Of a DNA stretch of 64,000 bases, positions 6,107 through 28,406 are shown one piece after another; position 1 is the first letter of the stretch, and each line of letters begins with the position of its first letter. The notes below the pieces were generated by a model that did no database searches, was not told where the DNA came from, and worked only from the letters and a program-made list of their open reading frames with translations. The position numbers and the translations under genes were made by a program. Source of the DNA: an uncultured virus (IMG/VR IMGVR_UViG_3300030333_006991) (taxonomy: Duplodnaviria; Heunggongvirae; Uroviricota; Caudoviricetes); the IMG/VR virus record IMGVR_UViG_3300030333_006991; one strand, given 5' to 3'.

Positions 6107-6976
6107 ATGTATCAAGGTATTCCGATTCAGAGTGAAACAACGAGAGCAACGACTACGGTTGGTGGAAGTTATGTTCTTCCTCCTGCACCGCCAAGTCCAA
6201 ACAGAATGGAATTTGATTCTGTAAGTATTTCAAGAGATACTCTACCTGCTCGTAATGCTATGAACAGTATGTCGGAGATTGGTCAAAGAGGTCCTCGACC
6301 TTCACCAACAATGGTGCATGATTCAATGGCAGGTGCAGGTGCGCCTCCATCAGCACAAGGAATGCAGAATCTTACAAGCCTTCCTAATGTGAAGCCTTTT
6401 GGAGAAGGTGGCGATTACATTCGTTCTCCTCTATGGTCTACTGATGAAGAGATTACACAGTATGAAATGAGAGGTCAGCAAATCAGCCCTGATGAGCCCG
6501 TTCATTTCCGTGCGGCTCACACACTTGAAATGTATGGAACCCCTGCGGCTCCAAATATGACGGAGATGCGAATTGGTCGAGAGGAAGTTTACCTTGACCA
6601 ACTCCCAACGAACCACGGTGTTCCTATGAATTTCGGTGGAAACCCTTACAGTGAGAAGGCACGACAATACATTCGTCCACAACCTTCTCATGTGCGGGGG
6701 CCACAGTATAGTGTTCCTCGCTCAACTATTGTTGAACCGATTCTAAGTGTGCCTGTTCGACCTGCACCACCTCGTATCAATATGCCTCGTATTCCAAGAG
6801 TGAGTGCGAACCCTGTTACTGTTCAAGCCAAGCCTGTCTTGCCTCCTGTTGAAGGACCTGATTTCGGTTTAGGAAATAATTCCTCACTACTCGCAGGAAC
6901 ATCACGACACATGGGGCCAATCGGTCAGTCATCGGGACGCTCTTTTGGAGCAGAGGGTAGCATGACTCCCTTTTGA
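6107..6976 (+). CDS. Pro-rich low-complexity virion-type protein
   Basis: Pro/Ser/Met rich; SFGAE linker near the C-terminus. Confidence 0.7.
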   Translation: MYQGIPIQSETTRATTTVGGSYVLPPAPPSPNRMEFDSVSISRDTLPARNAMNSMSEIGQRGPRPSPTMVHDSMAGAGAPPSAQGMQNLTSLPNVKPFGEGGDYIRSPLWSTDEEITQYEMRGQQISPDEPVHFRAAHTLEMYGTPAAPNMTEMRIGREEVYLDQLPTNHGVPMNFGGNPYSEKARQYIRPQPSHVRGPQYSVPRSTIVEPILSVPVRPAPPRINMPRIPRVSANPVTVQAKPVLPPVEGPDFGLGNNSSLLAGTSRHMGPIGQSSGRSFGAEGSMTPF

Positions 6977-6988
6977 GGGGGTTAAGTT

Positions 6989-8497
6989 ATGACGAAACGC
7001 TGTCCTGAATGTCGTTACAAAATGGAACAGCACGGCATCATTGAAAATAATGATGTCTACTATTGTGATGTGTGCGGAGTTTATCTTTCTTACCCTTTAG
7101 AGGAAGATGATGAAGAGGAATTGCTCTACGCTTCGGAAGATGAAGATAAGGTTCCTTGTAGTTTTTGTTGGGAACCTATTGGAACCGTCAAGGAAATGTA
7201 TGAAGATGAAACTGTTGATTATGAGGTTGCTAATGATGAACCTGTTTGCATTTCTTGTTACGAGGAGTGGATTCAGGAATGGAAGAACGATTTAGATATG
7301 CACTACAACCCTTTTCATGCAGAATCTTTTAGAGCCGATGAGGAATTTTACGAAGAATACCCTGCCAAGTATTATCAGACCGATGAAGATGAAGGAGTTT
7401 TCCATCTTCCTGCTACCGACTCTTATTGGGTAGTCAGTGACGATGGATGTGCGGGGCCTTTCGACAAGGAAGAATCTCAAAAATTTGTGTTTGGAGCCGA
7501 AGCAGGAAAATATCATATTACTTGGAAGGATGGAAAAAAAGGAGTCACTTTCGATTTTGAAGGTGGCGATGATATGCACTTCGATGATACATGGACTGAC
7601 TTGTTTTGGGACGCTTCTAATCCTCAAGTTACTGAAGCCCCTGCGAGGAAGAAGAGAGGGTGGTTCAGTGGTAAAAGGGCTGCTGAAACCTTTGAATATA
7701 CAGACGAATGGTATATTTCTGCTTTACCAAGAATCGTTAAGAGGGTGAAAGAACAATTGGTTGATGATGAGAGAATGAAGTTGGATGAGCCTGAAATGTA
7801 TGCTTTGTTTGAGGATGAAATGTTTGATGGTGATGAAACATCTCTTGATTCTTATGTGTATAATGCTTTGGAAATTGAATATCCTACATTGACGGAGCAA
7901 CAAAAAATTGAAATTAGCGAAGATGCTGATATGCTTTCTGATGTTTGGTTTGGTATTGATATGACTGATGAAGAGTTTAGAGATTGGTTGATTACAGAAG
8001 GGCAAGAATATGATGATGAAGGCAATCCCATAAGTAGGGCTGATTGGGGCTTAGATGAAAATTGGGGGGCGGAAGATTTCAACGCAGTAGTAATTGCTCC
8101 TGAGAAACCGAAGGGTGCGGTAGAAAAGGCCATGATGAATCATTACTTGCTAAAAGAAGGTGAGTTGCGGCTCGCACTTGAGGTTTTGGAAAACGAAGTG
8201 CAGTTAGGAATAATTTCCGAGCGAGAAGCACACAAAAGATTACAAAAAATCTTACAATCGCACATGGAGAGAAGATACAGTGAAACTACGGCTTCTACCG
8301 CAGGGAAAAAAACTTTGACGAGCGGAGTTTTCATGCTGATTTCTGTGGCTTCCCTATGGAGAGCGGTTACAGTGACGGAAAATGAGTATTTGTTCCCTAA
8401 TGAAAAGAAATGGATGTCTATTTTAGGTTCGGCTGCTATCGGACTTGGAATACTTGCTCTAAAAGGAGATAGTATACTTGCTGCCGTGGGGGAGTAA
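6989..8497 (+). CDS. FxAE-linker modular protein (Zn fingers, acidic modules, C-terminal TMs)
   Basis: CPEC..CDVC and CSFC..CISC; linkers FHAESFRAD, FGAE, AAETF, WGAEDFNA; two terminal hydrophobic helices. Confidence 0.8.
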   Translation: MTKRCPECRYKMEQHGIIENNDVYYCDVCGVYLSYPLEEDDEEELLYASEDEDKVPCSFCWEPIGTVKEMYEDETVDYEVANDEPVCISCYEEWIQEWKNDLDMHYNPFHAESFRADEEFYEEYPAKYYQTDEDEGVFHLPATDSYWVVSDDGCAGPFDKEESQKFVFGAEAGKYHITWKDGKKGVTFDFEGGDDMHFDDTWTDLFWDASNPQVTEAPARKKRGWFSGKRAAETFEYTDEWYISALPRIVKRVKEQLVDDERMKLDEPEMYALFEDEMFDGDETSLDSYVYNALEIEYPTLTEQQKIEISEDADMLSDVWFGIDMTDEEFRDWLITEGQEYDDEGNPISRADWGLDENWGAEDFNAVVIAPEKPKGAVEKAMMNHYLLKEGELRLALEVLENEVQLGIISEREAHKRLQKILQSHMERRYSETTASTAGKKTLTSGVFMLISVASLWRAVTVTENEYLFPNEKKWMSILGSAAIGLGILALKGDSILAAVGE

Positions 8498-8499
8498 GT

Positions 8500-10839
8500 A
8501 TGGTTAGGAATATCGTATTAGAAGATTATTATGATGAATACCTTGATGAGTTGGGTGAATCCGCTCTCACAGGTTATTCTACCGCATGGTTGTTCAAAAG
8601 AGCCGACCCTACCGCTTACCGTATAGGATTAAATGAATATACGGATGAATTAGAAGAAGAGTGTCGTCCTACGCCTCCTGACTTTGAACCATGTTATACG
8701 GAACGAGACATGGAGGAATACTATGATGAAATGCTCGATGAAATTGGAACCGAATGGCTCGCTGACCGTTACTCGATTGCATGGCTTATCAAAAGAGCCG
8801 ACCCTACGGCTTACCGTGTAGGATTAAATGAGTATGAAGATATGGTGAATGAAGATAATGAGGCGGAAACATTCGCTGCCCATGAAACTAATTGTGATTG
8901 CTACCAATGTGAACGGAAGAAATGGGATGCTCGCTCGTATTGGGAAAAACAGATTCTTTTAGACGACCCTGAGCAATATCATCGGAAAAGTCGGGATTTA
9001 GGGTGGAATGAAACTCGTAAATGTCGAAGGTGTGCAAAATGGGGTGGAGAGGTCTATGGGGCTAAAGTTACGGAATACAATGATGGGCTTCGCTTATACC
9101 ATTATGAAGATTGTGGGTGTGGAGTTTACGACCATTCCATCCGTAATCGTAGACGCAAAAAATGGCGAAGAGAAAAGAGTAGGATTCGTCAAGAGGAGAT
9201 GAATGCTCTCATCCGCAAAAGAGAACAGGAAAACAGGCAACGAGAGGCACGAAAAAAGGCACAGAAAAAATGGTGGCAATTTTGGCGGGCTGAAGATTCT
9301 GATTTAGGGCAATATGCGGCAGAAGAAGAGAGTAAGGGGAGGTATATCCCTGCAACTGAAGGTTACACTAAAGTCGCTCATTGGTCTGTGAATCCTATTT
9401 ACGCAACAAAAGGTAATACTTCATGTAGAGATGGTTGTGGAAAAAGAGCGAAATACAAGTGTCTTAATTGTGACTATGATTGGTGTGAAGACCACTTTGG
9501 TTTGCTCTCGGTAGAGTGGCCTGATGAACCTATGTGTTATAGATGTAAAAATGATATGGATGAATCGTGGGCGGAAGGTTTTGATACAGAATACAATTTC
9601 GTGATGTCGGATATTGGCGAGGCTGATGAACGAGTAGAGGAAAAACTTGATGAAGGTTGGAAACTCTATGGCGACCCTGTGGTTTTTGAGAAACAAGATT
9701 TCACAGTGTTCGGTCAAGGCATGACGAAAGACGCTGAAACTTTTCACGCAGACCCTCTTTTACAGGCTATCAAAGACCGAGAAAAGGCACGAAAGGCAGG
9801 AACGGTGAAACTACAAGGAATGCCACGGACGAAAGGAACGAAAGCCGAAGATGTGAAAGTAGGTGATGTGTTAGTTTGGAATCAAGGAGGCACATCTCAG
9901 GTGATGAGTATTACTCCTAAAGGTAAGCAATCTCTTTTATGGAAAACTCGCACTGAAGATGGTCGTGAATGGGAACGAACCGTGCGAAAGAACAGATTAG
10001 TAGTTGTAGCCCGACCTAACGGTTGGATTGCTAAAAAATATGCTGATATGAAATCAGAATCCTTCACATCCGATGAAAGTCCGTGTAGCCGATGTGGAAA
10101 GGTAGAGTGTAATTGGTGGTATCACGAAGTCCCACTTAAATGTTATTTTTGTAAAAAAGGTGTTGGCTACAAAGGAGAGCCTCTTCAACATGATGCTACG
10201 AGAGAAAGAGTATACCATCCTTCTTGTTACGCTAAATCTCTTGGAGAGGGGAGAGATTTTCACGCTTTTAGGGCAGAAGAAAAGAAAACCGAAATTGATT
10301 GGGGCATACACGATAACCCTCTAAAAGTAGTGGAATTGATTCAGGATGCAGGTTTTACAGACGATTGGGATTTAGCAGCGTTGGGTGGTGAAGGAGCGTT
10401 ATCTTCTAAGATTGGAGCCTCTCACCCTAAAGGAGTCGTTCACGCTTGTAGTGTGTGTGAAGACATGGAGCATACCGCTTCATCTTGTAAAGGTATACGA
10501 TGGGAAGTGTTCAGTAACTTTGAAATGTGGTATATGTGTGACCGAGTTTTACAAGAGAGTATAGAGAACAGAACAGAAGATATGGAGGAAGTGATTGAAA
10601 CTGCTATGTTTAATCGTAATCGGAGTTTAGATGAACCGAAAAAGAGAGCGGCTTTTGACCATCCTATTGACCCTGTGGAGTGGATATACGATGTGCAACC
10701 TATGAATTGGGAAATGCGTCATGGTTTTGACGCAGAATCACAAGTAGAGATGTCTAAGCCTATGAGTTTCTATGTTGGTGTCGTGGCAGGTTTAGGTGGG
10801 TTTTTAGCCCTCAGAAGTTATTTTCAAAATCAGGAATGA
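8500..10839 (+). CDS. FxAE-linker modular protein (duplicated acidic DPTAYR module, several Cys/His Zn modules, SH3-like module, C-terminal TM)
   Basis: Linkers EAETFAA, WAEGFDTE, DAETFHAD, SESFTSD, FRAE, FDAE; terminal FYVGVVAGLGGFLAL. Confidence 0.8.
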   Translation: MVRNIVLEDYYDEYLDELGESALTGYSTAWLFKRADPTAYRIGLNEYTDELEEECRPTPPDFEPCYTERDMEEYYDEMLDEIGTEWLADRYSIAWLIKRADPTAYRVGLNEYEDMVNEDNEAETFAAHETNCDCYQCERKKWDARSYWEKQILLDDPEQYHRKSRDLGWNETRKCRRCAKWGGEVYGAKVTEYNDGLRLYHYEDCGCGVYDHSIRNRRRKKWRREKSRIRQEEMNALIRKREQENRQREARKKAQKKWWQFWRAEDSDLGQYAAEEESKGRYIPATEGYTKVAHWSVNPIYATKGNTSCRDGCGKRAKYKCLNCDYDWCEDHFGLLSVEWPDEPMCYRCKNDMDESWAEGFDTEYNFVMSDIGEADERVEEKLDEGWKLYGDPVVFEKQDFTVFGQGMTKDAETFHADPLLQAIKDREKARKAGTVKLQGMPRTKGTKAEDVKVGDVLVWNQGGTSQVMSITPKGKQSLLWKTRTEDGREWERTVRKNRLVVVARPNGWIAKKYADMKSESFTSDESPCSRCGKVECNWWYHEVPLKCYFCKKGVGYKGEPLQHDATRERVYHPSCYAKSLGEGRDFHAFRAEEKKTEIDWGIHDNPLKVVELIQDAGFTDDWDLAALGGEGALSSKIGASHPKGVVHACSVCEDMEHTASSCKGIRWEVFSNFEMWYMCDRVLQESIENRTEDMEEVIETAMFNRNRSLDEPKKRAAFDHPIDPVEWIYDVQPMNWEMRHGFDAESQVEMSKPMSFYVGVVAGLGGFLALRSYFQNQE
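8521..8835 (+). repeat. two diverged copies of an ~40-aa module (YYDExLDExG...AWLxKRADPTAYRxGLNEY)
   Basis: Near-identical DNA around AAAAGAGCCGACCCTAC.GCTTACCGT.TAGGATTAAATGA at ~8596 and ~8791. Confidence 0.85.
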
Positions 10840-10890: not shown

Positions 10891-11310
10891 ATGGCAAAAA
10901 AGTATGGAAAGAGAAATCGTTATGGAAATCGTTATGTTGCTCGTAACGCTAAGGGACAATTTATCAGTAATGTAGATGTAGGTCGAAGCCTAAAGGCAGA
11001 CCGTAGACGAGATGCGAAGAATTACGCAGGACCAGGTTTCGGTCAAATGGGTGATGCTTCTTCAAAGAAGAGAGGTCTGTTCCGCACAGAGATGCCTGTT
11101 CCTCAGAATTATCCTGAGGGAGATGGTCGTATTCTTGGTCAGTCCGACTCAACCACAAACTACACTCCTGCGGGACTTCATGCTGAAACCTTCTTCGGTG
11201 GAGCCAAGCAAGGATTCGGAGTTACTATGGGTGTGCTTGGCGCACTTGTGGTTGGTGGATTCGCTATGAATATGCTCGGAATGGCATCAGGTGACGCTTC
11301 TGAAGAATAA
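10891..11310 (+). CDS. small basic FxAE-linker membrane protein
   Basis: Basic RYVARNAKGQF..DVGRSLKADRR module, PEGDGRILGQ module, LHAETF, terminal TM. Confidence 0.8.
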   Translation: MAKKYGKRNRYGNRYVARNAKGQFISNVDVGRSLKADRRRDAKNYAGPGFGQMGDASSKKRGLFRTEMPVPQNYPEGDGRILGQSDSTTNYTPAGLHAETFFGGAKQGFGVTMGVLGALVVGGFAMNMLGMASGDASEE

Positions 11311-11323: not shown

Positions 11324-12763
11324 ATGCCAAACATTTACAAGGGTGATATTGGCTTCAAAGGCCAACAAGCACAAATCATAACCTCACGCAATATCGGTGA
11401 AGATTTGAATTACTCTGTAAATTCAGGAACACTTTTACTCACTGATAAGAAATCAGGAGATATGTTTAGTTATGTGGATGAACCTCAAAAGTTGGAAAAT
11501 TATTCCGCAGGTCGTTTGAAAACTACTTCTCCTCCGCTTTACTGCCCTTCTTGTGCAGCACAACTTATTGGATTTACGAGAGGAAAAAGAAAGATTACCA
11601 TTCCTTTTTGTCCTCTGTGCGCCCCTTCTAATCTTGTGAATTACTCTTCTTTGACTTGTAATGCCTATGAAAATAACGCTATCAAACATTTTGACGCAGA
11701 ACATTCACAAGGTTACGATGATAGAGATGATGAATCCATTGGAATGCGTCACCGAGGTAGACACAAGCAATCCCTAAAAGACCGTAGAGATGAGTCGAAG
11801 GGAATGACTGACCACGATGACCCTCATCACCCTTACTCTGATGTTAGCACTATGAGTGCAGAACATTCACAAGGTTACGATGATAGAGATGATGAATCTA
11901 TTGGAATGCGTCACCGAGGTCATCACAAGCAATCCCTAAAAGACCGTAGAGATGAGTCGAAGGGAATGACTGACCATGATGACCCTCATCACCCTTACTC
12001 TGATGTTAGCACTATGAGTGCAGAATTAACAGGTTCACAATACTATCCTGTCGGAGAAGGTCACATTCTTGGTGATATTACTTCGGATGCTCAATACACT
12101 CCTCTTGGTTCCAATGCTGAAGAAACACCGTCATTGTTTGATGATTGGGAAAACCTCACTTGGGATGAAAGGATTCAATTGTTGCATGATGCAGGTTATC
12201 CTGGTTTGGATGATGATGAAATGAGTGCAGAATATGATTCTCCTTACGGTGAAAGACAAACGACTGTTTTTGGTCTTGTTGGCGGTGGAAATGATTTCGC
12301 TCAAAACCGTGCTGAATCTTTGATGGACACCACTTCTGATGAAGTTATGCCATTCGGTGTTATCGGTGGAGGAAACGATTTCGGACAGAATCTTGCAGAA
12401 GATTTCGGGTCGGAATATCATTTGACTGAAGCCGAAAGAAATCGCCTACCAAAAAGTGATTTCGCTATGCCATCGGAAAGAAAATATCCTATGCCTAACA
12501 CTTACTATGCTAAGAAGGCACTGACTTACGCAAAGTGGCCTAACAACCGAGGCGACCTACGAGAAGTGGAAAGAAATGTTCTCGCTAAATACCCTTCATT
12601 GGATGGTTGGTGGTCAAAGCACCGCCCGAAGAATGCAGAAACTTTTGGTGCGGAATCAAAGGGAACAAATATGTGGATGATGGCTGCTATGGCTGCCGTT
12701 GGATTTGTTGCAGGTATCTCTTTGAAAGACCTGAATACCGATATTGATTCTCAAGAATCGTAA
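11324..12763 (+). CDS. FxAE-linker modular protein (His/Asp tandem repeat, DUF6582-like module, C-terminal TM)
   Basis: FDAE, MSAE, NLAEDFGSE, NAETFGAE linkers; LTEAERNRLPKSDFAMPSERKYPM resembles the phage 'LPDSAFA..RKYP' module. Confidence 0.8.
   Translation: MPNIYKGDIGFKGQQAQIITSRNIGEDLNYSVNSGTLLLTDKKSGDMFSYVDEPQKLENYSAGRLKTTSPPLYCPSCAAQLIGFTRGKRKITIPFCPLCAPSNLVNYSSLTCNAYENNAIKHFDAEHSQGYDDRDDESIGMRHRGRHKQSLKDRRDESKGMTDHDDPHHPYSDVSTMSAEHSQGYDDRDDESIGMRHRGHHKQSLKDRRDESKGMTDHDDPHHPYSDVSTMSAELTGSQYYPVGEGHILGDITSDAQYTPLGSNAEETPSLFDDWENLTWDERIQLLHDAGYPGLDDDEMSAEYDSPYGERQTTVFGLVGGGNDFAQNRAESLMDTTSDEVMPFGVIGGGNDFGQNLAEDFGSEYHLTEAERNRLPKSDFAMPSERKYPMPNTYYAKKALTYAKWPNNRGDLREVERNVLAKYPSLDGWWSKHRPKNAETFGAESKGTNMWMMAAMAAVGFVAGISLKDLNTDIDSQES
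11696..12019 (+). repeat. 2 x 162-bp near-perfect tandem repeat (54 aa)
   Basis: Units start at GCAGAA (AE) at 11696 and 11858; the next AE is at 12020. Confidence 0.95.
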
Positions 12764-12779: not shown

Positions 12780-12793
12780 GCATTCTTATAGTG
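12780..12793 (+). promoter_or_regulatory. GCATTCTTATAGTG promoter motif
   Basis: 31 nt before ATG 12824; TTCTTATAGTGGTTCTGCCAC is shared with 55278. Confidence 0.8.
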
Positions 12794-12823
12794 GTTCTGC
12801 CACATTCACAGTGGAGAATTACT

Positions 12824-14120: not shown

Positions 14121-14243
14121 ATGGATGATACGATAGAACAAGGAGCCAAATGGGGTGCAGGATTCGCACTTGGATGGGTCGCTGTTTCCATCGGCTTAGG
14201 TGTCGCAGGGATTACTCTTGCCTATTTGTTAAACAATAGGTGA
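14121..14243 (+). CDS. 40-aa single-TM protein (stand-alone anchor-like)
   Basis: Read manually: MDDTIEQGAKWGAGFALGWVAVSIGLGVAGITLAYLLNNR. Confidence 0.65.
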   Translation: MDDTIEQGAKWGAGFALGWVAVSIGLGVAGITLAYLLNNR

Positions 14244-21389: not shown

Positions 21390-21848
21390 ATGGCTCATCT
21401 ACGCTCAACTCAAATTGACTACGAAGGTATGGGAGACAGAGTTTTCCAACAACAACAAGCCATTATGGAAGATTTGCGTGACCAAATCCCATCTATTGAA
21501 TACGACCCAAGCCGTTACGACCCAAGTAATGAGCAAGGTTCCGTTTTCGGAGGTGGAACAACCCATTACAGTAACGGCAATCGCCCTGCTATGGCGGTTA
21601 ATCAAGCGCAAATGGCAAACAACCCTTCAATGAACAGAACAGGAGCCGTTAGGTCTGTTTTTGATTTACACAGTAACGAAGCGACCTATGATAATATCCC
21701 GCTCAGTAGAAGAGTAAACTATTCCAACGCTTACAATACCCCTCTCAGAATGTCGCAACCTCCTGTGGATGCGGCCAATGCACAATATCAACCAAATGAA
21801 TTACTATTGGTGACGGACTCACGCACTAAAACTCGGAGTCCCTTTTAG
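21390..21848 (+). CDS. Gln/Asn-rich hypothetical protein
   Basis: ORF with GGAGG SD. Confidence 0.7.
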   Translation: MAHLRSTQIDYEGMGDRVFQQQQAIMEDLRDQIPSIEYDPSRYDPSNEQGSVFGGGTTHYSNGNRPAMAVNQAQMANNPSMNRTGAVRSVFDLHSNEATYDNIPLSRRVNYSNAYNTPLRMSQPPVDAANAQYQPNELLLVTDSRTKTRSPF

Positions 21849-21859: not shown

Positions 21860-24800
21860 GTGCCGTTCAAATCTAAAGAACAGGAAACTTATTTGCGAAT
21901 AAACGAGCCTGAAATCTACGAGCGTTGGAAAAAACGCTATGGGCTTTACAAAGGTGCGGAAACTTTTACGCCTGAATCCGAGTCGGAAGTTTACGATTTA
22001 ATGGACGCCTTTGAAGACGCAGGTTATGAAATACTTCTTGTTGGTGGTGTAGTCCGAGACACTCTTTTAGGACATCTTCCTTCTGATTACGATTTTTCCA
22101 CGAATGCAACTCCCGATGAGGTGGCTGAAGTTGTAGATTCTATGAGTGATTACAAGTATATTCGGGGAGCCGAAGGCGCACAGGCTAAAAGAGCCCTCAC
22201 TTCTTTAGTGTTGAGTCCAAGTGGCGAGGTTTTTGAAATCACGACTTATCGAGCCGAATTAGGTTACGAAGATGGCAACCGAGCGTTACCAATTGCTGTT
22301 CCTGCTGAAACCTTTGCTGAAGACGCTTCTCGTAGAGACATAACGATTAACTCAATGGGAATGGATAAATCAGGTGAGATTCACGACCCTATGAACGGTC
22401 TAAAAGATTTAGAGCAAGGAATTATCCGAGCCGTAGGGAATCCTGAAGATAGATTTACCGAAGACCCGTTGAGGATGATTCGGGCGATTCGTTATTCCGT
22501 CAGATTCGGATTTCCAATGGACGAGGCTACGGAACAAGCCATCATAGACAATGTAGACCTTGTAAACACCTTATCCTCTAAAAGGTTACGAACCGAAGTA
22601 GGCAAAGTTTTGTATTATCCTAACGGTTTCCGAAGATTGATGGAAACAGGTATTCTGCCTACCTTAATGCCTGAATTCCGTGAAATCGAGCAATACGAAC
22701 ATCAACGAGATTATCACCCTGAAGGAAACCTTTACAATCACTATGTTGCCGCCTTCGACACTTTTACGCAACAGCCCGCTCGCACAGAAATGGGTGCGTG
22801 GGGTTTACTATTCCATGATATTGCGAAACCTGCCACCGCAGAGTGGACAGGAGAGTATCACACTTTCAAAGGTCACGACAGCCGAGGAAGAGATTTAATT
22901 CTGAATCAATACAACAATAAAGCAGGGCCTTTTGAGTTTTCCAAGAAGGAATTACAAGCGTTGGCGTGGACGACAGAACATCATTTGAACAAGTTTTGGG
23001 ATATGAAAAAGCCTACAAAGGTAGCAGAAATGGCGAACAGCCCTCATTATCCTCTTTTACTTGAAGTGATTTACGGAGACAGCATGGGAGGCCATGATGA
23101 GAAATTGGCTAAAAGATTACAATTCATCGAAGAAACGAAAAACGAAGTAAACGCTCGCAAAGCCTTAGTCGGTGCAAGACCTGAAGGATTCGCTCTCCGT
23201 GTGTTTCAAGAGTTGGATATTCCGAAAGGTAGAGAGCGAGGAATCGTGATGGCTGAAATTGAAAGATTGGTAAGCACGGGTGAAGCGAGCGATTACGAGC
23301 AAGCATTGGAACAACTGAAAGGCAATCTAAGTGCAGAGTTTACACCATTTATCCCTATTACCGACATCACGATTCACAGCAAACAGTTTGACGAAGATGA
23401 AGGTAGAATGATAGACACTTACACTCCTGTTGAAGACCCTGATGCGAGGAAGGATTGGGTAGGTCGGGTGGTTTATGATAGGTTCCGAAGAAAGGGCGAG
23501 ATAGTGGATGAAGGTTACGGTTTGCAGAACGGGAGAGTTACGCATTTCCTTTACATCATCAAATTAGATGGAGTTGGATTTTTAGAAGTGGCGAACACGA
23601 TGAATTATTATCAGGCTTTTGATAAGTTTGACCCTTACGGTATTTTAATTCAAACGGGAGAGTCATGGGTTCCTCTAAGTGACGATACCACAACATCTTA
23701 TGGGAGTTTGGCTAAACATGAAGTAAAGTTTCCTATATGGGAAGGTGATGGTGGCCCTGATTTTAGTCGCCATAATTGGCAAGAGTGGACGGAGAAATCG
23801 CCTGATACAGTAGAAGAATGGGTCAGAGCGTATCATCAAGATACTCGGCCTGAGTGGGAATCTCATCTTTTGCTAAAAGAGAACCCTGAGGAATATGACC
23901 GAAGACGATTGATGGGTATGTATGGTCGAAGAGATTGTGATATTTGTGGTAATTCTATTGAAGAGGAGAAAATGTCGCAATTACGGATGGAAATGGGTAT
24001 GGATTCTGATATTTACTATGATGTGATTTGTGATACTTGTGCCGAGGCGGAAGGTAATGACGAGTGGACTTGGTTGTGGGACCACATAGAAGATGAATTA
24101 CGAGATGCGGAAAAAAGAGAGGCTGCGTTGGACGACATCCACGCTGCGGAAACTGTGATGACTAAACTCGACATTCCTACGGATGAAAGTTGGTGGATAG
24201 GGAAAGAAGTTAGAGATGTAAACGGCAGAGTAGGACACATTGTAAAGGATAATTGGGCTAAAATACAAGGTATGAAAGCCTCAGGTTTGTTGAATTGGAT
24301 TCCTGTTTCAGATAGTGCCACGGCAACGCATCGAGTGTGGACGATAGATATGGGTAGAGGTAAAGAAATTGAAGTTTCTAACGCTCTCACAGTGTTCGGC
24401 CAAAAACAACTTTTCGACCCTTATGGTATCATCTTTTACGATAGTCGAGATACCGCCCCAAAAGGTCTACGCAAGAGCAGAGAGGAGAAGTGGGTTCCTC
24501 TCAGCGCACACCCTAAGACGGCTTATGGTGTGGAATTGATAGGTTTTGATAAAACTCCTGCGTCTACTGCTCACACTTATACACCGCATAAAGGTTATCC
24601 TCTTGTTTCACCTGCGTTTAACGAGAAAAACATAAAACTCGATTTAGAAACTCGCAACAGAGTTTTCGGAGACAGACATATCATTAAGGATTCCGAGATG
24701 GAAAGATGGGGAGTGATAAAGAACGCCAATAAACACCCTTATTTTATGAGAATGTTGGATGAAATTGTTAGAGAGGAGTTTATCCAATCTATGTGGGCGG

Positions 24801-25330
24801 AGTGGGAAGAGTATTACGCTAATTACGGAAAGCCTTCCATCCACCCACAGCACCCCTACACGCCCCCTCCTTTAGCAACTTTGCACAAGGACTTTTTGAA
24901 CCACGAATTAAGCCCTTATGAGATTTGGGATAGTTATTGTGAATGGTTGGCCTATGACGAGTTTGGTGATGATTACATTCAGGACTATTATCGCACTCCT
25001 GCCGAGTTACAAGATTTGGATATTGATTTGTCTTTTTCTGATGTAGAGGAGGAGATACAAGATATTACTCAAAACTACTTCTCTCAGTATATCGAACCTA
25101 ATTACAAGGAATGGATGAAAGATATGTGGAATAGCGAAAACTCAAGTAGTCGGGCTGAATCTTTTAGGATGATGACTGAAAGGTTGCCTAATGAATCCGT
25201 CCAAGATTGGGCGAAGCGACAGCGAGCAGATGAAACTCTTCGGGTTCTAACGAGCAGCCTCTACACTATGGGCGTTATGGCATTTGGATTAGGATTGGGT
25301 TGGTATGTTTCAAAGAAGTATCTTGGGTGA
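21860..25330 (+). CDS. cca: FxAE-linker polyprotein containing a class II CCA-adding/poly(A) polymerase-family nucleotidyltransferase with HD-type domain, duplicated FDPYGI modules, C-terminal TM
   Basis: LVGGVVRD, DYDFSTNA, RRDITINSM, EDPLRMIRAIR, YHPEG, FHDIAKP, HTFKGHD; flanked by KGAETF and LSAEF. Confidence 0.85.
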   Translation: MPFKSKEQETYLRINEPEIYERWKKRYGLYKGAETFTPESESEVYDLMDAFEDAGYEILLVGGVVRDTLLGHLPSDYDFSTNATPDEVAEVVDSMSDYKYIRGAEGAQAKRALTSLVLSPSGEVFEITTYRAELGYEDGNRALPIAVPAETFAEDASRRDITINSMGMDKSGEIHDPMNGLKDLEQGIIRAVGNPEDRFTEDPLRMIRAIRYSVRFGFPMDEATEQAIIDNVDLVNTLSSKRLRTEVGKVLYYPNGFRRLMETGILPTLMPEFREIEQYEHQRDYHPEGNLYNHYVAAFDTFTQQPARTEMGAWGLLFHDIAKPATAEWTGEYHTFKGHDSRGRDLILNQYNNKAGPFEFSKKELQALAWTTEHHLNKFWDMKKPTKVAEMANSPHYPLLLEVIYGDSMGGHDEKLAKRLQFIEETKNEVNARKALVGARPEGFALRVFQELDIPKGRERGIVMAEIERLVSTGEASDYEQALEQLKGNLSAEFTPFIPITDITIHSKQFDEDEGRMIDTYTPVEDPDARKDWVGRVVYDRFRRKGEIVDEGYGLQNGRVTHFLYIIKLDGVGFLEVANTMNYYQAFDKFDPYGILIQTGESWVPLSDDTTTSYGSLAKHEVKFPIWEGDGGPDFSRHNWQEWTEKSPDTVEEWVRAYHQDTRPEWESHLLLKENPEEYDRRRLMGMYGRRDCDICGNSIEEEKMSQLRMEMGMDSDIYYDVICDTCAEAEGNDEWTWLWDHIEDELRDAEKREAALDDIHAAETVMTKLDIPTDESWWIGKEVRDVNGRVGHIVKDNWAKIQGMKASGLLNWIPVSDSATATHRVWTIDMGRGKEIEVSNALTVFGQKQLFDPYGIIFYDSRDTAPKGLRKSREEKWVPLSAHPKTAYGVELIGFDKTPASTAHTYTPHKGYPLVSPAFNEKNIKLDLETRNRVFGDRHIIKDSEMERWGVIKNANKHPYFMRMLDEIVREEFIQSMWAEWEEYYANYGKPSIHPQHPYTPPPLATLHKDFLNHELSPYEIWDSYCEWLAYDEFGDDYIQDYYRTPAELQDLDIDLSFSDVEEEIQDITQNYFSQYIEPNYKEWMKDMWNSENSSSRAESFRMMTERLPNESVQDWAKRQRADETLRVLTSSLYTMGVMAFGLGLGWYVSKKYLG

Positions 25331-25334
25331 TTTC

Positions 25335-25751
25335 ATGGGGTATTTTGATTTAGACAAATATCTTCCGCTAAAAGAAGAAGACCGACCTGAAGGCGTAATC
25401 ACATTAGAAGGTGTGGAATCTTACGAAGAGTTTGCTGAGAAAGAAGTGACGAAACATCATCAACATGGTGCAGTAAGTCCTTTGATGTCTGTTCTTGGAA
25501 GAGGTGGGGCTACCGCTCAAAATATGTTGATGGCTTCAGAAACTTTTAGCATGGAATCCTATATGGTTCCTGAATACGCTGTTAGGGAAAATTACGGTCA
25601 AACCTTTACTCCGAATATCGAACCCAATTGGATGATACGAGAACAATTGACGGAATTACGAGATGCGTTCCCTGATACCAAACTAAATATTCCGAAAAAG
25701 AAACTAATTGGAGCCTCTTCACTCCTCTCATTATCTCCCTTCGGAGTTTAA
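25335..25751 (+). CDS. hypothetical protein with ASETFSME linker
   Basis: SD GGTGA before ATG 25335. Confidence 0.7.
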   Translation: MGYFDLDKYLPLKEEDRPEGVITLEGVESYEEFAEKEVTKHHQHGAVSPLMSVLGRGGATAQNMLMASETFSMESYMVPEYAVRENYGQTFTPNIEPNWMIREQLTELRDAFPDTKLNIPKKKLIGASSLLSLSPFGV

Positions 25752-25776: not shown

Positions 25777-25801
25777 CTTCGGTTCAATAATAGTGATTGC
25801 T

Positions 25802-26824
25802 ATGGCTAACAATGGTTTAGAAATGTTCAATGCTATCGCTTTATTCACCGTAGGACTTGTCGGAGGCCATGCGGTCATTTCAATGATGACGAATAATAAA
25901 GAGGAAATGGCGACAGAGGAGCAACCCAATCCTACGGATGCAGAAAGTATGATGTATGAAGACACAGAAGCCAAAGTAATCATACCGTATTCACTTTACG
26001 AAGGTGGACAAGGTGCGCTATACAGAGATTATGTTTGGGAAGGTCAAGACCACTTCCCGTTTGATGGTGAAATGTATTCACGACCTGCTCTTACAACTTT
26101 AATGTATGATTCTGCCTTCGGGTCGAGTCCTTCCCGCACTATTGATTTGCCTTATCGTATTCACGAAAATGAGCCGATAATGACTGATACTCTCACTGTT
26201 GCAGGTTCCTACGCTATGGGCTCTCCAACTACATTGGAACACTATGGCTCGGAATCTTTTGCAGCGAATGGGGCTGATGAATGTCCACAAGGAATGAAGT
26301 GGGATGCAAGTCGGAAGATTTGCGTTCCGCCCGAACAACCTATGCACGATTATGGGGCTGAAACTTTTAGAAGTCAAGCAACACCTCAAATGCAACTTGG
26401 AGACAAGATTGAAGGAAGTCAGAACGCCTTGAATGAGGTTAGCACTTCAGCATGGGTAGGAGATAATTGGAAAAAGGTAGGTTATCATCCTGAAGCAGCA
26501 AATTATCCACTTATACGCCCACGCACTAACAATCCTGTGGTTTCAGATATGATTGATGAGGTTTCCTCTATTCGGATGCCTCCTGCACAACATCTGAGTG
26601 TAGGTAGAGACAGCATCAGAATGTATGACCCATACACTTTCATGGAAGAAAATCCAAATGTGAATGTTCAATATCGTCCTACCGACACGGAATTCGGAGA
26701 AGGAGCAGAAACAAAGACAAGTCGAGAGTGGCAGACCTCTAATACAGTTTTCGATTACAGTGACCAACAAATAGAAACACAAAGTAAGTTTGGCGGTTTC
26801 CGCCAACGCCTGAGGAGAGTGTAA
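25802..26824 (+). CDS. N-terminal TM protein with FxAE linkers and a small Cys module
   Basis: YGSESFAA, YGAETFRS; CPQGMKWDASRKICV. Confidence 0.75.
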   Translation: MANNGLEMFNAIALFTVGLVGGHAVISMMTNNKEEMATEEQPNPTDAESMMYEDTEAKVIIPYSLYEGGQGALYRDYVWEGQDHFPFDGEMYSRPALTTLMYDSAFGSSPSRTIDLPYRIHENEPIMTDTLTVAGSYAMGSPTTLEHYGSESFAANGADECPQGMKWDASRKICVPPEQPMHDYGAETFRSQATPQMQLGDKIEGSQNALNEVSTSAWVGDNWKKVGYHPEAANYPLIRPRTNNPVVSDMIDEVSSIRMPPAQHLSVGRDSIRMYDPYTFMEENPNVNVQYRPTDTEFGEGAETKTSREWQTSNTVFDYSDQQIETQSKFGGFRQRLRRV

Positions 26825-26827
26825 ATC

Positions 26828-26837
26828 TTCTTATAGT
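26828..26837 (+). promoter_or_regulatory. TTCTTATAGT promoter motif
   Basis: About 30 nt before ATG 26868. Confidence 0.75.
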
Positions 26838-26867
26838 TGAGAGGACAAAGAAAGGTAGGTGCAAAAT

Positions 26868-28406
26868 ATGAAATCTCTACTCCTATACAGCGATGATGCG
26901 TGGAATAATGACCGCACAGACAACTTTACTAACGCTGTGGTAAAGAAGGAATCGGAATTAACCGAAGAAGAAAGAGAAACATTTTACCCTTGTTCCATGT
27001 ATTTTGAAGTTGGAGCAACCGATGATACAGGATATGAAACACTTAGGATTGAAGAACAACCTATCAGTTACGATGGTCAGGATTTCAAGATGTTCGTCAT
27101 TACTATGAAAGGTCCTAACGGAGAAATTGCTACACAGAATTTCCCTAATCCTGAAACTATTGATTGCAGTAAGTTTGAATGGGCTAAAACAGGGTTTGGT
27201 GGCGAACAAGGAGACACCGTTAAATTCTGTCTAACGGGAGCGGAAACTTCCAATAAAATTGACCGTAAAAAGATTGAAGATTTCATTAGTAATAAAATAA
27301 CAAACATTCGTGGTGAAGAAGAGGAAGAAGAAGAAGATTCCGAAGCCGAATTCTATCCTGTTGGCGAAGGTCGCATCCTCGGAGATATTACAGCCACAAC
27401 AGAATACCAACCAATTGCTAACGCAGAAGAAATGGCTTCAGAGTATTCCGTTGAAAGAATCAATCCCACACCTGTTACAGGCAAGAACGATGTAAGGGCT
27501 GAAACCTTTGCTTCTGAAGGTTCTTGCACAAAATGTGCAGAAACCTTTGCAGCCTGTGGGTGTTCAAGTGAAACCATGAACACGGAAGCCAATCCTGAGG
27601 TTGCTGATGTGTCGTTGTGGGATGATATGAGTATGCCTGAAGGAACAGGAAATATTGTTGGTCAAGCAACGCCTGAAACGGATTTCACTCCTTTTAGCGT
27701 TTCCGCAGAAACCTTCAACAGTAGTGTGCAAACTTACGCTTCTCACGCTGTTCCTCTTGGTGTAGGTTCCGTCATGGGTCAAGCAACTCCTGATACTGAT
27801 TTTACTCCTTTTGGAACAAGGGCAGAAAACTTCCATGCAGGGCGTTATGGAGTAACTGATAAACCTATTGAGGGATATTGGGGGGCAACCATTGACTCTC
27901 TGATTGCAGATTTGGAAGGATTCAAGATGTCTTACGGAGGTAATACTCCTGTGAAGATTCGGGCAGGTATCGGATGGAGTGGTGTTGGAAGTTATGATAT
28001 AGGTTTCCAAGAATACACAACAACCTTAGAGAAACTCAGTAAAGATGAATATGATGCAGATAGAGAAGAAATTAAGGCTGATTTGGATAGCGGAAAAGAA
28101 ACCATTAACGCTTTAGCCCTTGTAAAAGAGAATTATGACCCTCCTTATGTTTCCAAGTGGAACGCAGAAAACTTTGATGCGGAACAAGTTGTTCCCTTCG
28201 GAGTGGTCGGAAGTGGAAACGATTTCGGACAGAATCTTGCAGAAGATTTCAGCGCAGAATCTCGTCATGGCACTTGGGTAGGTCTTGGACTTGCTCTATT
28301 GGCAGGAATGGGAGCGAAGATGGCGTTAGACAGAATGGATAAAAAGGAAGAGGCTCCTGATTCGGAGGAACCCTCAGAAGAATCAGATGAGGCCCCTGAC
28401 GCATGA
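26868..28406 (+). CDS. FxAE-linker modular protein rich in PxGxG..G[QD] repeats, C-terminal TM
   Basis: RAETFASE, CAETFAA, SAETFNS, RAENFHA, WNAENFDAE, LAEDFSAE. Confidence 0.8.
   Translation: MKSLLLYSDDAWNNDRTDNFTNAVVKKESELTEEERETFYPCSMYFEVGATDDTGYETLRIEEQPISYDGQDFKMFVITMKGPNGEIATQNFPNPETIDCSKFEWAKTGFGGEQGDTVKFCLTGAETSNKIDRKKIEDFISNKITNIRGEEEEEEEDSEAEFYPVGEGRILGDITATTEYQPIANAEEMASEYSVERINPTPVTGKNDVRAETFASEGSCTKCAETFAACGCSSETMNTEANPEVADVSLWDDMSMPEGTGNIVGQATPETDFTPFSVSAETFNSSVQTYASHAVPLGVGSVMGQATPDTDFTPFGTRAENFHAGRYGVTDKPIEGYWGATIDSLIADLEGFKMSYGGNTPVKIRAGIGWSGVGSYDIGFQEYTTTLEKLSKDEYDADREEIKADLDSGKETINALALVKENYDPPYVSKWNAENFDAEQVVPFGVVGSGNDFGQNLAEDFSAESRHGTWVGLGLALLAGMGAKMALDRMDKKEEAPDSEEPSEESDEAPDA

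What the first reader, a model, noticed from the sequence alone, without database searches (positions are those of the whole stretch)
6107..28406. Array of membrane-anchored modular polyproteins punctuated by an F-x-A-E / AE[STDN]F linker: candidate protease-processed virion cargo system
Seen: more than a dozen consecutive co-oriented genes are built of unrelated blocks of tens to hundreds of residues. The blocks are joined by a recurring linker, often doubled (FHAESFRAD, WGAEDFNA, DAETFHAD, NAETFGAE, LSAETFNAE, GAESFSAE, YAESFGSE, QAESFHAE, WNAENFDAE, LAEDFSAE), and most of these proteins end in one TM helix. The linker is essentially absent from PolD, TFB, the glycosyltransferases and the AAA ATPase. 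Established: viral maturation proteases cut short motifs in packaged proteins (T4 gp21 after [ILV]xE, phiKZ-type after [SAG]xE, poxvirus I7 at AG|X, ASFV at GG|X in polyproteins). Inference: the precursors are tethered to a viral membrane and cleaved at FxAE to release many small effectors, or the motif is a docking/packaging signal. I know of no described archaeal virus system like this.
Basis: partly seen in the sequence, partly recalled or inferred. Interest (0 to 1): 0.95.

Follow-up and report, generated by a model that had tools for sequence, protein, structure and literature searches.

The report
Shuffled membrane-anchored proteins with junction motif
A large virus-like element of marine archaea carries a row of membrane-anchored proteins built from interchangeable blocks that are always joined by the same short peptide (A-E-S/T-F), which marks the exact points where related strains gain, lose or swap blocks and may be a protease cutting site.

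Summary
AE[STDN]F occurs 28 times in 17 co-oriented array proteins, against 0.42 expected from shuffles. It occurs only in the coding frame. 14 of 19 array proteins end in a hydrophobic anchor.

The motif marks module boundaries:
- Homology to relatives breaks at it.
- In-frame deletions and swaps between strains run motif to motif.
- In one AlphaFold model, 4 of 5 copies lie in low-confidence linkers.

The same motif pervades hundreds of unnamed marine proteins.

The element looks like a large archaeal virus. It has a HerA/FtsK packaging ATPase. Its paralogous jelly-roll proteins are nearest to capsid proteins of the membrane-containing viruses SPV1 and HHIV-2. It also has PolD and TFB, and no ribosomal genes.

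What the motif does remains inferred. I favour a cut after Glu that frees modules from tail-anchored precursors (about 0.4). No protease was found, and one copy lies inside a folded enzyme domain. Rival readings are a docking motif, or a junction kept only for in-frame recombination. I found no description of this system in print.

The parts
2582..4174 (+). Context: HerA/FtsK-type ATPase with a C-terminal hydrophobic segment. Likely genome-packaging ATPase. No strict motif.
   Evidence: Pfam DUF87/HerA_C; phrog_2666 'terminase large subunit' E 1.8e-18; NCBIfam CedD/HerA; motif count 0
6101..6976 (+). First gene of the co-oriented row. Pro-rich, 291 aa, no strict motif, no anchor. Ends in a loose F-G-A-E variant followed by ...PF.
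   Evidence: conserved nearly full length in relatives, 9 of 11 HSPs cover more than 70%
6989..8497 (+). Modular tail-anchored protein, 502 aa. Strict motifs start at 7319, 7682 and 8069. N-terminal zinc ribbon.
   Evidence: relatives match pieces only, 0 of 4 HSPs cover more than 70%
8500..10839 (+). Modular tail-anchored protein, 779 aa. Motifs at 8863, 9571 and 9733. Contains modules matching phrog_9294 and DUF1737.
   Evidence: a strain lacks exactly 8862-9569, motif to motif
10891..11310 (+). Small tail-anchored protein, 139 aa. Motif at 11182, preceded by the P.G.G.I.G...[FY]TP cassette.
11324..12763 (+). Modular tail-anchored protein, 479 aa. Motifs at 12395 and 12635. Tandem 162-nt repeat at 11696-12025, whose unit begins with Ala-Glu codons.
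   Evidence: strain joints at loose motifs 11851>12221 and 12016>28182
12791..14116 (+). Modular tail-anchored protein, 441 aa. Motifs at 13397 and 13856.
14240..15232 (+). Modular tail-anchored protein, 330 aa. Motif at 14765.
   Evidence: strain deletion 14356>14771 between a loose and a strict motif, with 14 shared letters
15276..17069 (+). Modular tail-anchored protein, 597 aa. Motifs at 15837, 16116, 16287, 16530 and 16740. The module at 16116-16307 is the most widely conserved piece of the array.
   Evidence: strain deletion 15843>16123, motif to motif
17071..18543 (+). Tail-anchored protein, 490 aa. Weak P-loop kinase-like N-terminus. Motif at 17950.
   Evidence: (KTI12/AAA_18, E about 0.005, below cut-off)
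18543..19232 (+). 229-aa protein with one internal hydrophobic segment. Motif at 18819.
   Evidence: conserved full length, 6 of 6 HSPs; a strain joins 18815 to 17948, motif to motif
19242..19987 (+). Two small membrane proteins (19242-19640 and 19652-19987) without a strict motif. Conserved full length in relatives.
19987..21369 (+). Modular tail-anchored protein, 460 aa. Motif at 20986.
21390..21848 (+). 152-aa protein with no motif and no anchor. Ends in ...PF.
21860..25330 (+). 1156-aa tail-anchored protein. After a 32-residue leader comes motif 21956, then a class II CCA-adding enzyme core. Motif 22304 lies inside the head domain. Motif 25154 lies before the anchor.
   Evidence: Pfam PolyA_pol 60-190 and RNA-binding domain; phrog_2244; NCBIfam CCA tRNA nucleotidyltransferase; leader shared with other proteins
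25305..25751 (+). 148-aa protein without a strict motif.
25793..26824 (+). 343-aa protein with an N-terminal hydrophobic anchor. Motif at 26357.
26859..28406 (+). Modular tail-anchored protein, 515 aa. Motifs at 27498, 27537, 27705, 27822, 28164 and 28239. Three copies of the P.G.G.I.G...[FY]TP cassette.
28421..29476 (+). Last co-oriented gene, 351 aa, tail-anchored, no strict motif.
44185..44736 (+). Outlying 183-aa membrane protein with two strict motifs, at 44233 and 44500.
34884..36222 (+). Context: two adjacent paralogous jelly-roll proteins (34884-35597 and 35632-36222). Candidate capsid proteins. No motif.
   Evidence: 53% identical to each other; AlphaFold pLDDT 73; best structural matches are SPV1 capsid 6oj0_T (Z 8.0) and HHIV-2 6h82_b (Z 6.7)

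Best explanation
The array 6989-28406 is a hypervariable cassette region of a large, uncultured, virus-like element of marine archaea. Each gene encodes a precursor made of small autonomous modules and held in a membrane by a C-terminal helix. The modules are separated by a conserved junction peptide: hydrophobic-x-Ala-Glu-[Ser/Thr]-Phe, often followed by x-Ala-Glu.

Shown:
- The junction marks module borders.
- Related strains lose, gain and reorder modules in frame, by crossovers inside the junction.

Inferred:
- The junction is a processing site. An unidentified, Glu-specific protease, of the element or of its host, would cut after Ala-Glu.
- Where the site is doubled it would cut twice. 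This would free the modules from each other and from the anchor, as jumbo-phage prohead proteases do with head and ejection proteins.
- Because every module ends in the same site, any recombinant between two junctions stays in frame and processable. That would let the array evolve by shuffling.
For: Enrichment.
- The motif is 67-fold over shuffles and occurs only in the coding frame.
- 206 copies against 3.8 expected in 127 further cluster representatives.
- 312 copies on the coding strand against 2 on the other, in 80 related loci.

Boundaries.
- In gene 15276-17069, coverage by relatives steps at motif positions 185, 278, 335 and 486.
- Across the array, 33% of 75 homology breakpoints lie within 10 aa of a motif, against 12.8% for random placement (maximum 25% in 2000 trials). 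20 of 30 motifs have a breakpoint within 10 aa.

Strain variants.
- Joints 8861>9570, 15843>16123, 14356>14771 and 18815>17948 run motif to motif, with 5-14 shared letters where 'both' is non-zero.
- Every joint whose inserted length is known keeps the frame.
- 12 of 39 joint ends lie in a strict motif footprint (4.5% expected, p 8.5e-8).
- 26 of 39 lie in a strict or loose footprint (11.6% expected, p 9e-16).

Linker position. 4 of 5 motifs of the modelled protein lie in pLDDT<50 segments, and the fifth borders one.

Selection on the peptide. The Ala, Phe and middle codons vary among synonyms while the residues are kept.

Features that fit cutting.
- The site is doubled in tandem in 14 of 28 copies.
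- The -2 position is Tyr, Met, Phe or Leu, so both halves read hydrophobic-x-A-E.
- A copy sits just before many anchors.
- A conserved leader of about 32 residues followed by the motif heads different proteins.
- Some modules match families of small stand-alone phage proteins: phrog_9294 (127 positions), phrog_16160 (69) and DUF1737 (53).

Precedent. The SPN3US prohead protease cuts after A-X-E with Ser preferred at P1', at several sites per propeptide (PMC10052503, passages read).
Against: - No protease family was recognised. I scanned 53 window proteins with Pfam, 43 each with PHROGs and NCBIfam, and 32 again with Pfam at E up to 0.5. I also scanned 79 motif-bearing and 127 other ORFs from related loci. 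The window is only part of the element, and whole contigs could not be read.
- One strict copy (22304) lies inside the catalytic head domain of the CCA-adding enzyme. Cutting there would destroy the enzyme.
- Only 1 of 893 complete ORFs of the family ends in Ala-Glu. So gene fission gives no hint that mature ends lie there.
- The first Glu is GAA in 168 of 170 quasi-independent sites. In pooled strict sites it is 99.2%, against 90-91% in matched contexts. A protease model does not predict this codom bias.
- From recall: prokaryotic jelly-roll membrane viruses (PRD1, SH1, HHIV-2, SPV1) are not known to use a maturation protease.
- The AlphaFold model is of low confidence (mean pLDDT 54.7).
- Neither packaging into virions nor any effector activity is shown.
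Confidence: 0.4

Rival explanations
1. The junction is a short linear docking motif. Many copies in disordered linkers would bind one hub, such as the capsid inner face, the packaging vertex, the AAA ATPase or a membrane protein. This would recruit the tethered modules into particles or a replication compartment. The proteins would stay uncut.
For: - The motif is short, aromatic plus acidic, multi-copy, and mostly in low-confidence segments. This is the usual make-up of linear motifs (general knowledge).
- The 64-residue module flanked by two copies is strongly conserved: mean column identity 73% and 20 invariant positions in 44 sequences. It has 188 cluster representatives. Yet it is modelled without stable structure, as expected of a peptide that folds on a partner.
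- No protease was found.
Against: - No partner is identified.
- Docking does not explain why the motif sits at nearly every module border and just before the anchors.
- It does not explain why modules that resemble stand-alone small phage proteins are fused at all.
- Tandem doubling fits both readings.
Confidence: 0.25
2. The junction is kept mainly as a DNA-level device or by-product of recombination. A shared codon block gives microhomology for in-frame cassette exchange. The peptide would be only a tolerated linker.
For: - Crossovers lie inside the motif, with 5-14 shared letters.
- Joint ends are strongly enriched at motifs.
- Third-position bias at the motif: GAA in 168 of 170 sites, GCA in 100 of 170, and C at the third position of the middle codon in 104 of 170. 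Conserved Glu columns of the capsid-like protein are 72% GAA.
Against: - All four Ala codons and both Phe codons are used, and the middle residue varies among S, T, N and D, yet the peptide is kept.
- The DNA pattern is absent from the other two frames (0 of 32 in the array) and near background on the other strand. So the constraint is read in frame.
- Only about 9 fixed bases is little for homology-driven exchange.
- Much of the GAA excess is a general context effect: 90-91% in AE[ST]x and xE[ST]F contexts.
- Enrichment of surviving breakpoints at domain borders is expected under any model in which modules are autonomous.
Confidence: 0.15
3. The motif is the recognition part of a C-terminal sorting signal of the sortase/archaeosortase kind: a motif, then a helix, then a short charged tail. 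It would be cut for attachment to a lipid or surface layer.
For: Several proteins carry a copy 5-30 residues before the C-terminal helix, and basic residues often follow the helix (8 of 50 cases within 20 residues).
Against: - Most copies are internal and far from any helix (inter-motif spacing median 80 aa).
- The distance from the last motif to the helix exceeds 30 residues in 42 of 50 anchored proteins.
- The proteins lack N-terminal signal peptides. Their domains (zinc ribbons, nucleotidyltransferase, P-loop) are of cytoplasmic type.
- No sortase-like gene was seen.
Confidence: 0.03
4. Context rival: the window is not viral. It would be part of a small uncultured archaeal cell genome or a plasmid, and the array would encode cell-membrane proteins.
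For: - PolD, TFB, aIF1/SUI1, and in relatives PCNA, RNR, Spt5 and the PolD small subunit, are cellular-type genes.
- The jelly-roll match is modest (Z 8.0). Bacterial Ena pilus subunits score 6.4-6.6.
- Homologues of the capsid-like protein lie on contigs of up to 236 kb.
Against: - No ribosomal protein, aminoacyl-tRNA synthetase or rRNA family appears among 53 window proteins and 206 ORFs of relatives.
- The window's 64 kb has no tRNA. Relatives have only single scattered tRNAs.
- About three quarters of the proteins match no family.
- There is a packaging-type ATPase.
- One cluster member comes from a <0.22 micrometre Tara size fraction.
- Several longest contigs cluster at 157-177 kb.
- PolD is only 33-37% identical to the nearest species genomes.
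Confidence: 0.12

Closest known systems
Head and ejection proteins of T4-like and jumbo phages, processed by prohead proteases (T4 gp21, phiKZ gp175, SPN3US gp245)
   Same: - A short motif ending in Glu recurs in many proteins encoded near the capsid genes.
- SPN3US cuts after A-X-E with Ser preferred at P1', and at several sites within one propeptide (PMC10052503, passages).
- Short N-terminal leaders are removed there, and here a conserved leader precedes a motif.
   Different: - Here Ala is at P2 rather than P3, and Phe follows at P2'.
- The sites separate unrelated modules rather than trimming propeptides.
- The proteins are tail-anchored.
- The capsid candidates are jelly-roll, not HK97-fold.
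- No protease gene was found.
- Cleavage is not shown.
Polyvalent proteins of phages and conjugative elements (Iyer et al. 2017, PMC5512222)
   Same: - Long polypeptides of many unrelated small domains in mobile elements.
- Extensive mosaicism between relatives.
- Some are processed by proteolysis and delivered with the DNA (passages read).
- A WGR domain occurs here in relatives.
   Different: - The paper's text holds no occurrence of 'linker'.
- Their processing is ascribed to built-in zincin-like peptidase domains, which are absent here.
- Nearly all modules here match no family.
- The membrane anchor and the archaeal setting are different.
Junction motifs of polymorphic toxins (VENN in CdiA, PxxxxDPxGL in Rhs).
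   Same: A short conserved peptide marks the border to interchangeable modules. It provides the recombination point, and in Rhs it is also the cleavage site.
   Different: - There is one junction per protein, before one C-terminal toxin with an immunity gene.
- Here there are up to six junctions per protein, no immunity-like pairs were seen, and no toxin domains were recognised.
Polyprotein processing in large eukaryotic DNA viruses (ASFV pp220/pp62 at GG|X, poxvirus AG|X, adenovirus).
   Same: Structural precursors of membrane-containing DNA viruses are cut at a short repeated motif.
   Different: - Different motif and a cysteine protease of the adenain/Ulp1 kind. None was recognised here.
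- Those products are fixed core proteins, not shuffled modules.
Internal-membrane archaeal viruses with single jelly-roll capsid proteins (SPV1, HHIV-2/SH1)
   Same: - Two adjacent paralogous jelly-roll proteins plus a HerA/FtsK-type ATPase.
- Many small membrane proteins.
   Different: - Genomes of 20-31 kb (recalled), against contigs of 157-177 kb here.
- No PolD, TFB or modular array is known there.
- The structural match is modest (Z 8.0 and 6.7).

Membership tests
Prohead-protease maturation system (T4 gp21 / phiKZ gp175 / SPN3US gp245 type) | A prohead protease gene in the genome | tested here: inconclusive
   No peptidase family among 53 window proteins or 206 ORFs of relatives. The window is only part of the element, and whole contigs were not readable.
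Prohead-protease maturation system (T4 gp21 / phiKZ gp175 / SPN3US gp245 type) | Substrates cut after Glu in a short motif | not testable with these tools
   A motif with invariant Glu exists. Cutting needs proteomics or an assay.
Prohead-protease maturation system (T4 gp21 / phiKZ gp175 / SPN3US gp245 type) | HK97-fold capsid with portal and terminase | tested here: not met
   The candidate capsid proteins are jelly-roll. The ATPase is of HerA/FtsK type. No portal or HK97 family was hit.
Polyvalent proteins (Iyer et al. 2017) | Several unrelated domains in one polypeptide of a mobile element, mosaic between relatives | tested here: met
   The conserved module lies anywhere from residues 3-62 to 965-1024 of proteins of 86-1189 aa.
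Polyvalent proteins (Iyer et al. 2017) | Domains of the known conflict repertoire (zincin-like peptidase, ParB-like, ArdC-N, methylases and others) | tested here: not met
   Pfam on 79 motif-bearing ORFs found only DUF1737 (2), WGR (2) and two sub-threshold hits. In the window it found the CCA-adding enzyme core and DUF1737.
Archaeosortase/exosortase-type C-terminal sorting signal | Motif directly before the C-terminal helix, followed by a short basic tail, at the end of a secreted protein | tested here: not met
   Most copies are internal. The last motif lies more than 30 residues from the helix in 42 of 50 cases. There are no N-terminal signal segments.
Tail-anchored membrane proteins | A single hydrophobic segment within about 60 residues of the C-terminus and no N-terminal signal | tested here: met
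   14 of 19 array proteins, by hydropathy only. An ArsA/Get3-like ATPase occurs in one relative (L026:10232-11131, E 1.1e-63).
Single jelly-roll, internal-membrane archaeal viruses (SPV1 / HHIV-2 kind) | Jelly-roll major capsid proteins | tested here: inconclusive
   The model has pLDDT 73. The best of 48161 chains is SPV1 6oj0_T (Z 8.0, 127 aligned), then HHIV-2 6h82_b (Z 6.7). Non-viral jelly rolls score 6.3-6.6. The Foldseek best E-value is 3.9e-3.
Single jelly-roll, internal-membrane archaeal viruses (SPV1 / HHIV-2 kind) | FtsK/HerA-type packaging ATPase | tested here: met

The most novel reading that the evidence does not exclude
A globally distributed, undescribed lineage of large, membrane-containing archaeal viruses runs a dedicated cassette-shuffling system. 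One conserved junction would act twice. As a codon block, it guides in-frame exchange of modules between genes and strains. As a peptide, it is cut after Glu to release a changing set of small effectors from tail-anchored precursors. The partial nucleotide-level conservation (GAA, GCA) would be selected for this dual use.
Probability: 0.2. Interest if true: 0.9.

Novelty: new variant of a known kind. Interest (0 to 1): 0.72.

Why it matters
If the junction is a processing site, this would be the first polyprotein-like maturation system proposed for an archaeal virus. It would be a simple rule for finding cargo or effector modules in a very abundant but unnamed group of marine elements. The capsid-like protein alone has at least 1785 clusters at 90% identity, all unnamed.

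Whatever the function, the array is a clear natural case of in-frame domain shuffling at a defined short junction, visible between co-occurring strains. It gives a testable handle on how large viruses diversify accessory proteins.

The setting also deserves description in its own right. It is a 160-kb-class element with PolD, TFB and aIF1, and with jelly-roll capsid candidates.

Tried and rejected
- **Whole genome.** None is held for the window. The records behind the loci are not held. So a protease search over complete contigs was not possible.
- **Viral contig scans.** Scans with the ATPase and with gene 26859-28406 found no relatives.
- **Earlier scan notes.** Nothing by place, sequence or words.
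- **Literature.** Searches on PolD-encoding archaeal viruses, jelly-roll marine archaeal viruses, Halopanivirales and tail-anchored/Get3 in archaeal viruses gave no paper on this group or motif. I saw listings and abstracts only.
- **Protein-complex prediction.** I tested the conserved 64-residue module against the two capsid-like proteins. The result was 'no answer', score 0.00, with the controls not run (collected). This is no evidence either way.
- **ESM Atlas.** A conserved unknown neighbour (L041:728-1642) gave no usable hit.
- **PDB profile search.** The capsid-like family gave only one chance-level hit, E 0.45.
- **RNA evidence.** No RNA holder was listed among the sequencing runs. So expression and RNA-level processing at the motif could not be examined.
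- **Rfam and tRNA scans of the window.** Nothing found.
- **Gene fission at the motif.** I looked for ORFs ending in Ala-Glu or starting with M-[ST]-F. There was 1 of 893 for the former and no clear excess for the latter.
- **Chance or low complexity.** Rejected by shuffles and by frame and strand specificity.
- **Frameshift or ribosome-skipping signal.** I considered this because of the GAA bias. I did not pursue it: no slippery pattern is evident, and matched contexts already give 90% GAA.

Full report

Yes.
- A six-frame scan finds AE[STDNEG]F 32 times in the three + frames and twice in the three - frames. 30 of the 32 lie in the co-oriented genes between 6989 and 28406. The other two lie in one small membrane protein at 44185-44736.
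- Against residue shuffles of the same 17 proteins (7003 aa), AE[STDN]F is seen 28 times where 0.42 is expected. The maximum was 3 in 2000 shuffles.
- The doubled form AE[STDN]F.[AS][ED] is seen 14 times against 0.01.
- The other 53 proteins of the window (13244 aa) hold two copies.
- PolD, TFB, the glycosyltransferases, the AAA ATPase and the HerA-type ATPase hold none.
- The matching DNA pattern GCNGAANNNTTY lies in frame 0 in 32 of 32 cases inside the array. It occurs three times on the opposite strand of the whole window.
- 14 of 19 array proteins have a hydrophobic 17-mer in their last 60 residues, against 7 of 37 other proteins. Only one array protein has an N-terminal hydrophobic segment. 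By sequence they are tail-anchored.

**2. What the motif looks like**

- In the window, and in 258 distinct contexts from relatives, the core is A-E-[T>S>N,D]-F.
- Ala is frequent at +5, and Glu, Pro or Asp at +6.
- Tyr, Met, Phe or Leu is frequent two residues before the Ala.
- Longer cassettes recur in front of it. P.G.G.I.G(6-10)[FY][TQ]P occurs six times and PFG.[VI]G[GS]GNDF.QN.AE.[FL] three times.

**3. The motif marks module borders**

- The 597-aa protein 15276-17069 has 375 relatives at E 0.001 or better among the 8000 candidates scored. Most cover only 8-25% of it, at 50-90% identity.
- Coverage along the query steps at motif positions 185, 278, 335 and 486.
- Over all array genes there are 75 collapsed homology breakpoints. 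Of these, 33% lie within 10 aa of a motif, against 12.8% for random motif placement (maximum 25% in 2000 trials).
- 20 of 30 motifs have a breakpoint within 10 aa.
- Modular genes match relatives in pieces. The small membrane proteins and the capsid-like proteins match full length.
- An AlphaFold model of the 597-aa protein is poor overall (mean pLDDT 54.7). It shows folded blocks separated by low-confidence stretches.
- Four of the five motifs lie in pLDDT<50 segments. The fifth starts one residue after such a segment and is modelled in a helix.
- One strict copy, at 22304, lies inside the PolyA_pol head domain of the CCA-adding enzyme. It is an exception.

**4. Strains differ by in-frame module changes at the motif**

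- Twenty public DNA runs hold parts of the stretch. They come from marine, seawater, sponge and sediment metagenomes in 16 studies. No RNA run is listed.
- Laying the contigs of four runs on 8407-28406 shows deletions, replacements and re-orderings.
- The joints 8861>9570, 15843>16123 and 18815>17948 run from one strict motif to another.
- 14356>14771 runs from a loose copy to a strict one with 14 shared letters.
- 9285>9583 replaces 297 bases by 15.
- Every joint whose inserted length is given keeps the reading frame.
- Of 39 distinct joint ends, 12 lie in a strict motif footprint (4.5% expected, p 8.5e-8). 26 lie in a strict or loose footprint (11.6% expected, p 9e-16).
- These 39 ends come from the 15 of 27 joints printed in table 5, plus five further joints in table 5c.
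- The one tandem repeat of the array (11696-12025, period 162, two copies) begins with Ala-Glu codons.

**5. The same system is widespread**

- A scan of metagenome contigs with the 64-residue module 16116-16307 found 123 relatives. 80 loci (823,820 bases) were kept, all marine, on contigs of up to 162 kb.
- In these loci the motif occurs 312 times on the coding strand and twice on the other. 147 of 883 ORFs carry it.
- A profile of the module finds 188 cluster representatives among 1.84 billion proteins. The proteins are 86-1189 aa long, and the module sits at almost any position in them.
- In 127 of these not seen before, the motif occurs 206 times against 3.8 expected from composition.
- Pfam recognises almost nothing in 79 motif-bearing ORFs.

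**6. What the element is**

- The window holds PolD large subunit, TFB, aIF1/SUI1, an AAA ATPase, a glycosylation cluster and a HerA/FtsK-type ATPase. That ATPase matches a PHROG called terminase.
- It holds no tRNA or Rfam family. About three quarters of its proteins match nothing.
- Relatives add RNR, ligase, PolX, PCNA, the PolD small subunit, Hjc, a flap nuclease, ERCC4, Spt5-NGN and helicases, but no ribosomal or synthetase family.
- Two adjacent paralogues (34884-35597 and 35632-36222), a third (45720-46199) and the end of 46209-48353 form one family.
- The model of 35632-36222 (pLDDT 73) is a jelly roll. Its best matches among 48161 chains are the capsid of Sulfolobus polyhedral virus 1 (Z 8.0) and of HHIV-2 (Z 6.7).
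- Both are membrane-containing archaeal viruses. Non-viral jelly rolls follow closely at 6.3-6.6, and Foldseek gives only weak capsid hits.
- This family has at least 1785 clusters, all unnamed.
- One member of a related cluster comes from a <0.22 micrometre Tara fraction.
- PolD is 33-37% identical to the nearest species genomes.
- I read this as a large uncultured virus, or virus-like element, of marine archaea, probably with a membrane. I allow about 0.12 for a cellular or plasmid origin.

**7. How it most likely works**

Shown: autonomous modules, a conserved junction, tail anchors, and in-frame shuffling at the junction.

The peptide itself is under selection. All four Ala codons and both Phe codons are used while the residues are kept. 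The DNA pattern is absent from the other frames. So a protein-level reader of the motif must exist.

I favour a protease that cuts after Ala-Glu (0.4). The reasons:
- The site stands at nearly every border and before many anchors.
- It is often doubled.
- It has an invariant Glu with a small polar residue after it.
- A conserved leader plus motif heads different proteins.
- Some modules resemble free-standing small phage proteins.
- Jumbo-phage prohead proteases cut after A-X-E, with Ser at P1', at several sites per precursor (PMC10052503, passages).

Against this reading:
- No protease was recognised.
- The copy at 22304 lies inside the enzyme domain.
- No ORFs end at Ala-Glu.
- No cleavage data exist.

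A docking motif (0.25) fits the disordered, multi-copy, aromatic-acidic character. It also fits the highly conserved yet unstructured 64-residue module.

A purely DNA-level junction (0.15) fits the crossovers and the codon bias. The first Glu is GAA in 168 of 170 quasi-independent sites. Over all distinct strict sites it is 99.2%, against 90-91% in matched contexts (p 5.6e-7). Conserved Glu columns of the capsid-like protein are 72% GAA. But this model does not explain conservation of the peptide across synonymous codons.

The readings are not exclusive. A junction that is both cut and used for exchange would explain most of the data.

**8. Comparison and novelty**

- The system works like protease-processed head and ejection proteins of large phages, and like polyvalent proteins (PMC5512222, passages).
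- Its junction logic resembles the VENN and DPxGL borders of polymorphic toxins (recalled, not read here).
- It is not a member of any of these. The capsid fold, the absence of built-in peptidases and known conflict domains, the tail anchors and the many junctions per protein all differ.
- Five literature searches found no description of the group or the motif (listings and abstracts only).
- Supplements of metagenomic virus surveys were not examined and could list such contigs.
- I rate it a new variant of a known kind, in an apparently undescribed virus lineage.

Noticed in passing
window 1-64000: The window looks like part of a large uncultured virus-like element of marine archaea. It has PolD large subunit (59130-62681, -), aIF1/SUI1 (62706-63026, -), TFB (29482-30537, -), an AAA ATPase (41189-42715) and a HerA/FtsK ATPase (2582-4174). 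It has no tRNA or Rfam hit, and most proteins have no family. Related contigs reach 157-177 kb, and one homologue lies on a 236-kb contig.
   Followed up: partly
window 34884-36222, 45720-46199, 46209-48353: A family of jelly-roll proteins shares a conserved C-terminal helix pair. They are candidate capsid proteins. The best structural matches are SPV1 (Z 8.0) and HHIV-2 (Z 6.7). At least 1785 unnamed clusters exist in public data.
   Followed up: partly
window motif sites; loci L005-L084: The first Glu of the motif is almost always GAA: 30 of 30 in the window and 168 of 170 quasi-independent sites. The preceding Ala is GCA in 59% of sites, and the middle codon ends in C in 61%. Matched contexts give 90-91% GAA, so this is a real but moderate excess. 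It is unexplained.
   Followed up: partly
L037:7189-7265, L045:2555-2628, L046:4038-4114, L068:2354-2427, L075:2035-2108: Five of 37 related loci scanned carry a lone tRNA-Ala(UGC) near the capsid-like genes. This tRNA reads GCA, the Ala codon favoured in the motif. One locus has tRNA-Lys(UUU) and one has tRNA-Leu(GAG).
   Followed up: no
L026:10232-11131: A relative encodes an ArsA/Get3-type ATPase (Pfam E 1.1e-63). This is the family that inserts tail-anchored proteins. Only two such ORFs were seen among the loci, and none in the window.
   Followed up: no
window 16116-16307: This 64-residue module is flanked by two motifs. It has 20 invariant positions in 44 sequences and 188 cluster representatives, yet it is modelled as unstructured. 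It contains invariant Ser, His and Asp residues. Its role is unknown.
   Followed up: partly
window 21860-25330: A bacterial-type (class II) CCA-adding enzyme core is fused, after a 32-residue leader and a motif, into a 1156-aa tail-anchored protein. From recall, archaea use class I enzymes. The same leader heads other proteins in L055 and L058.
   Followed up: partly
window 11696-12025: Tandem repeat of 162 bases, two copies, 97% alike, inside gene 11324-12763. Strain contigs show joints that go back within this region (12121>11870 and 12123>11708), which may reflect other copy numbers, and a deletion between two M-S-A-E sites.
   Followed up: partly
window 6101-6976, 21390-21848 and loci ORFs: Pro-Phe is the commonest C-terminal dipeptide of the family's ORFs (37 of 893). 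Glu is the commonest last residue (127 of 893). This may be a second, C-terminal signal.
   Followed up: no
window 36324-41239 (-): A glycosylation cluster lies on the opposite strand. It holds a GT4 and two GT2-type glycosyltransferases, an FkbM methyltransferase and a GDP-mannose 4,6-dehydratase.
   Followed up: no
window 33898-34707 and 43710-44168: The P.G.G.I.G...[FY]TP cassette also occurs outside the array, in a membrane protein just upstream of the capsid-like genes. A looser version occurs at 43710-44168.
   Followed up: no
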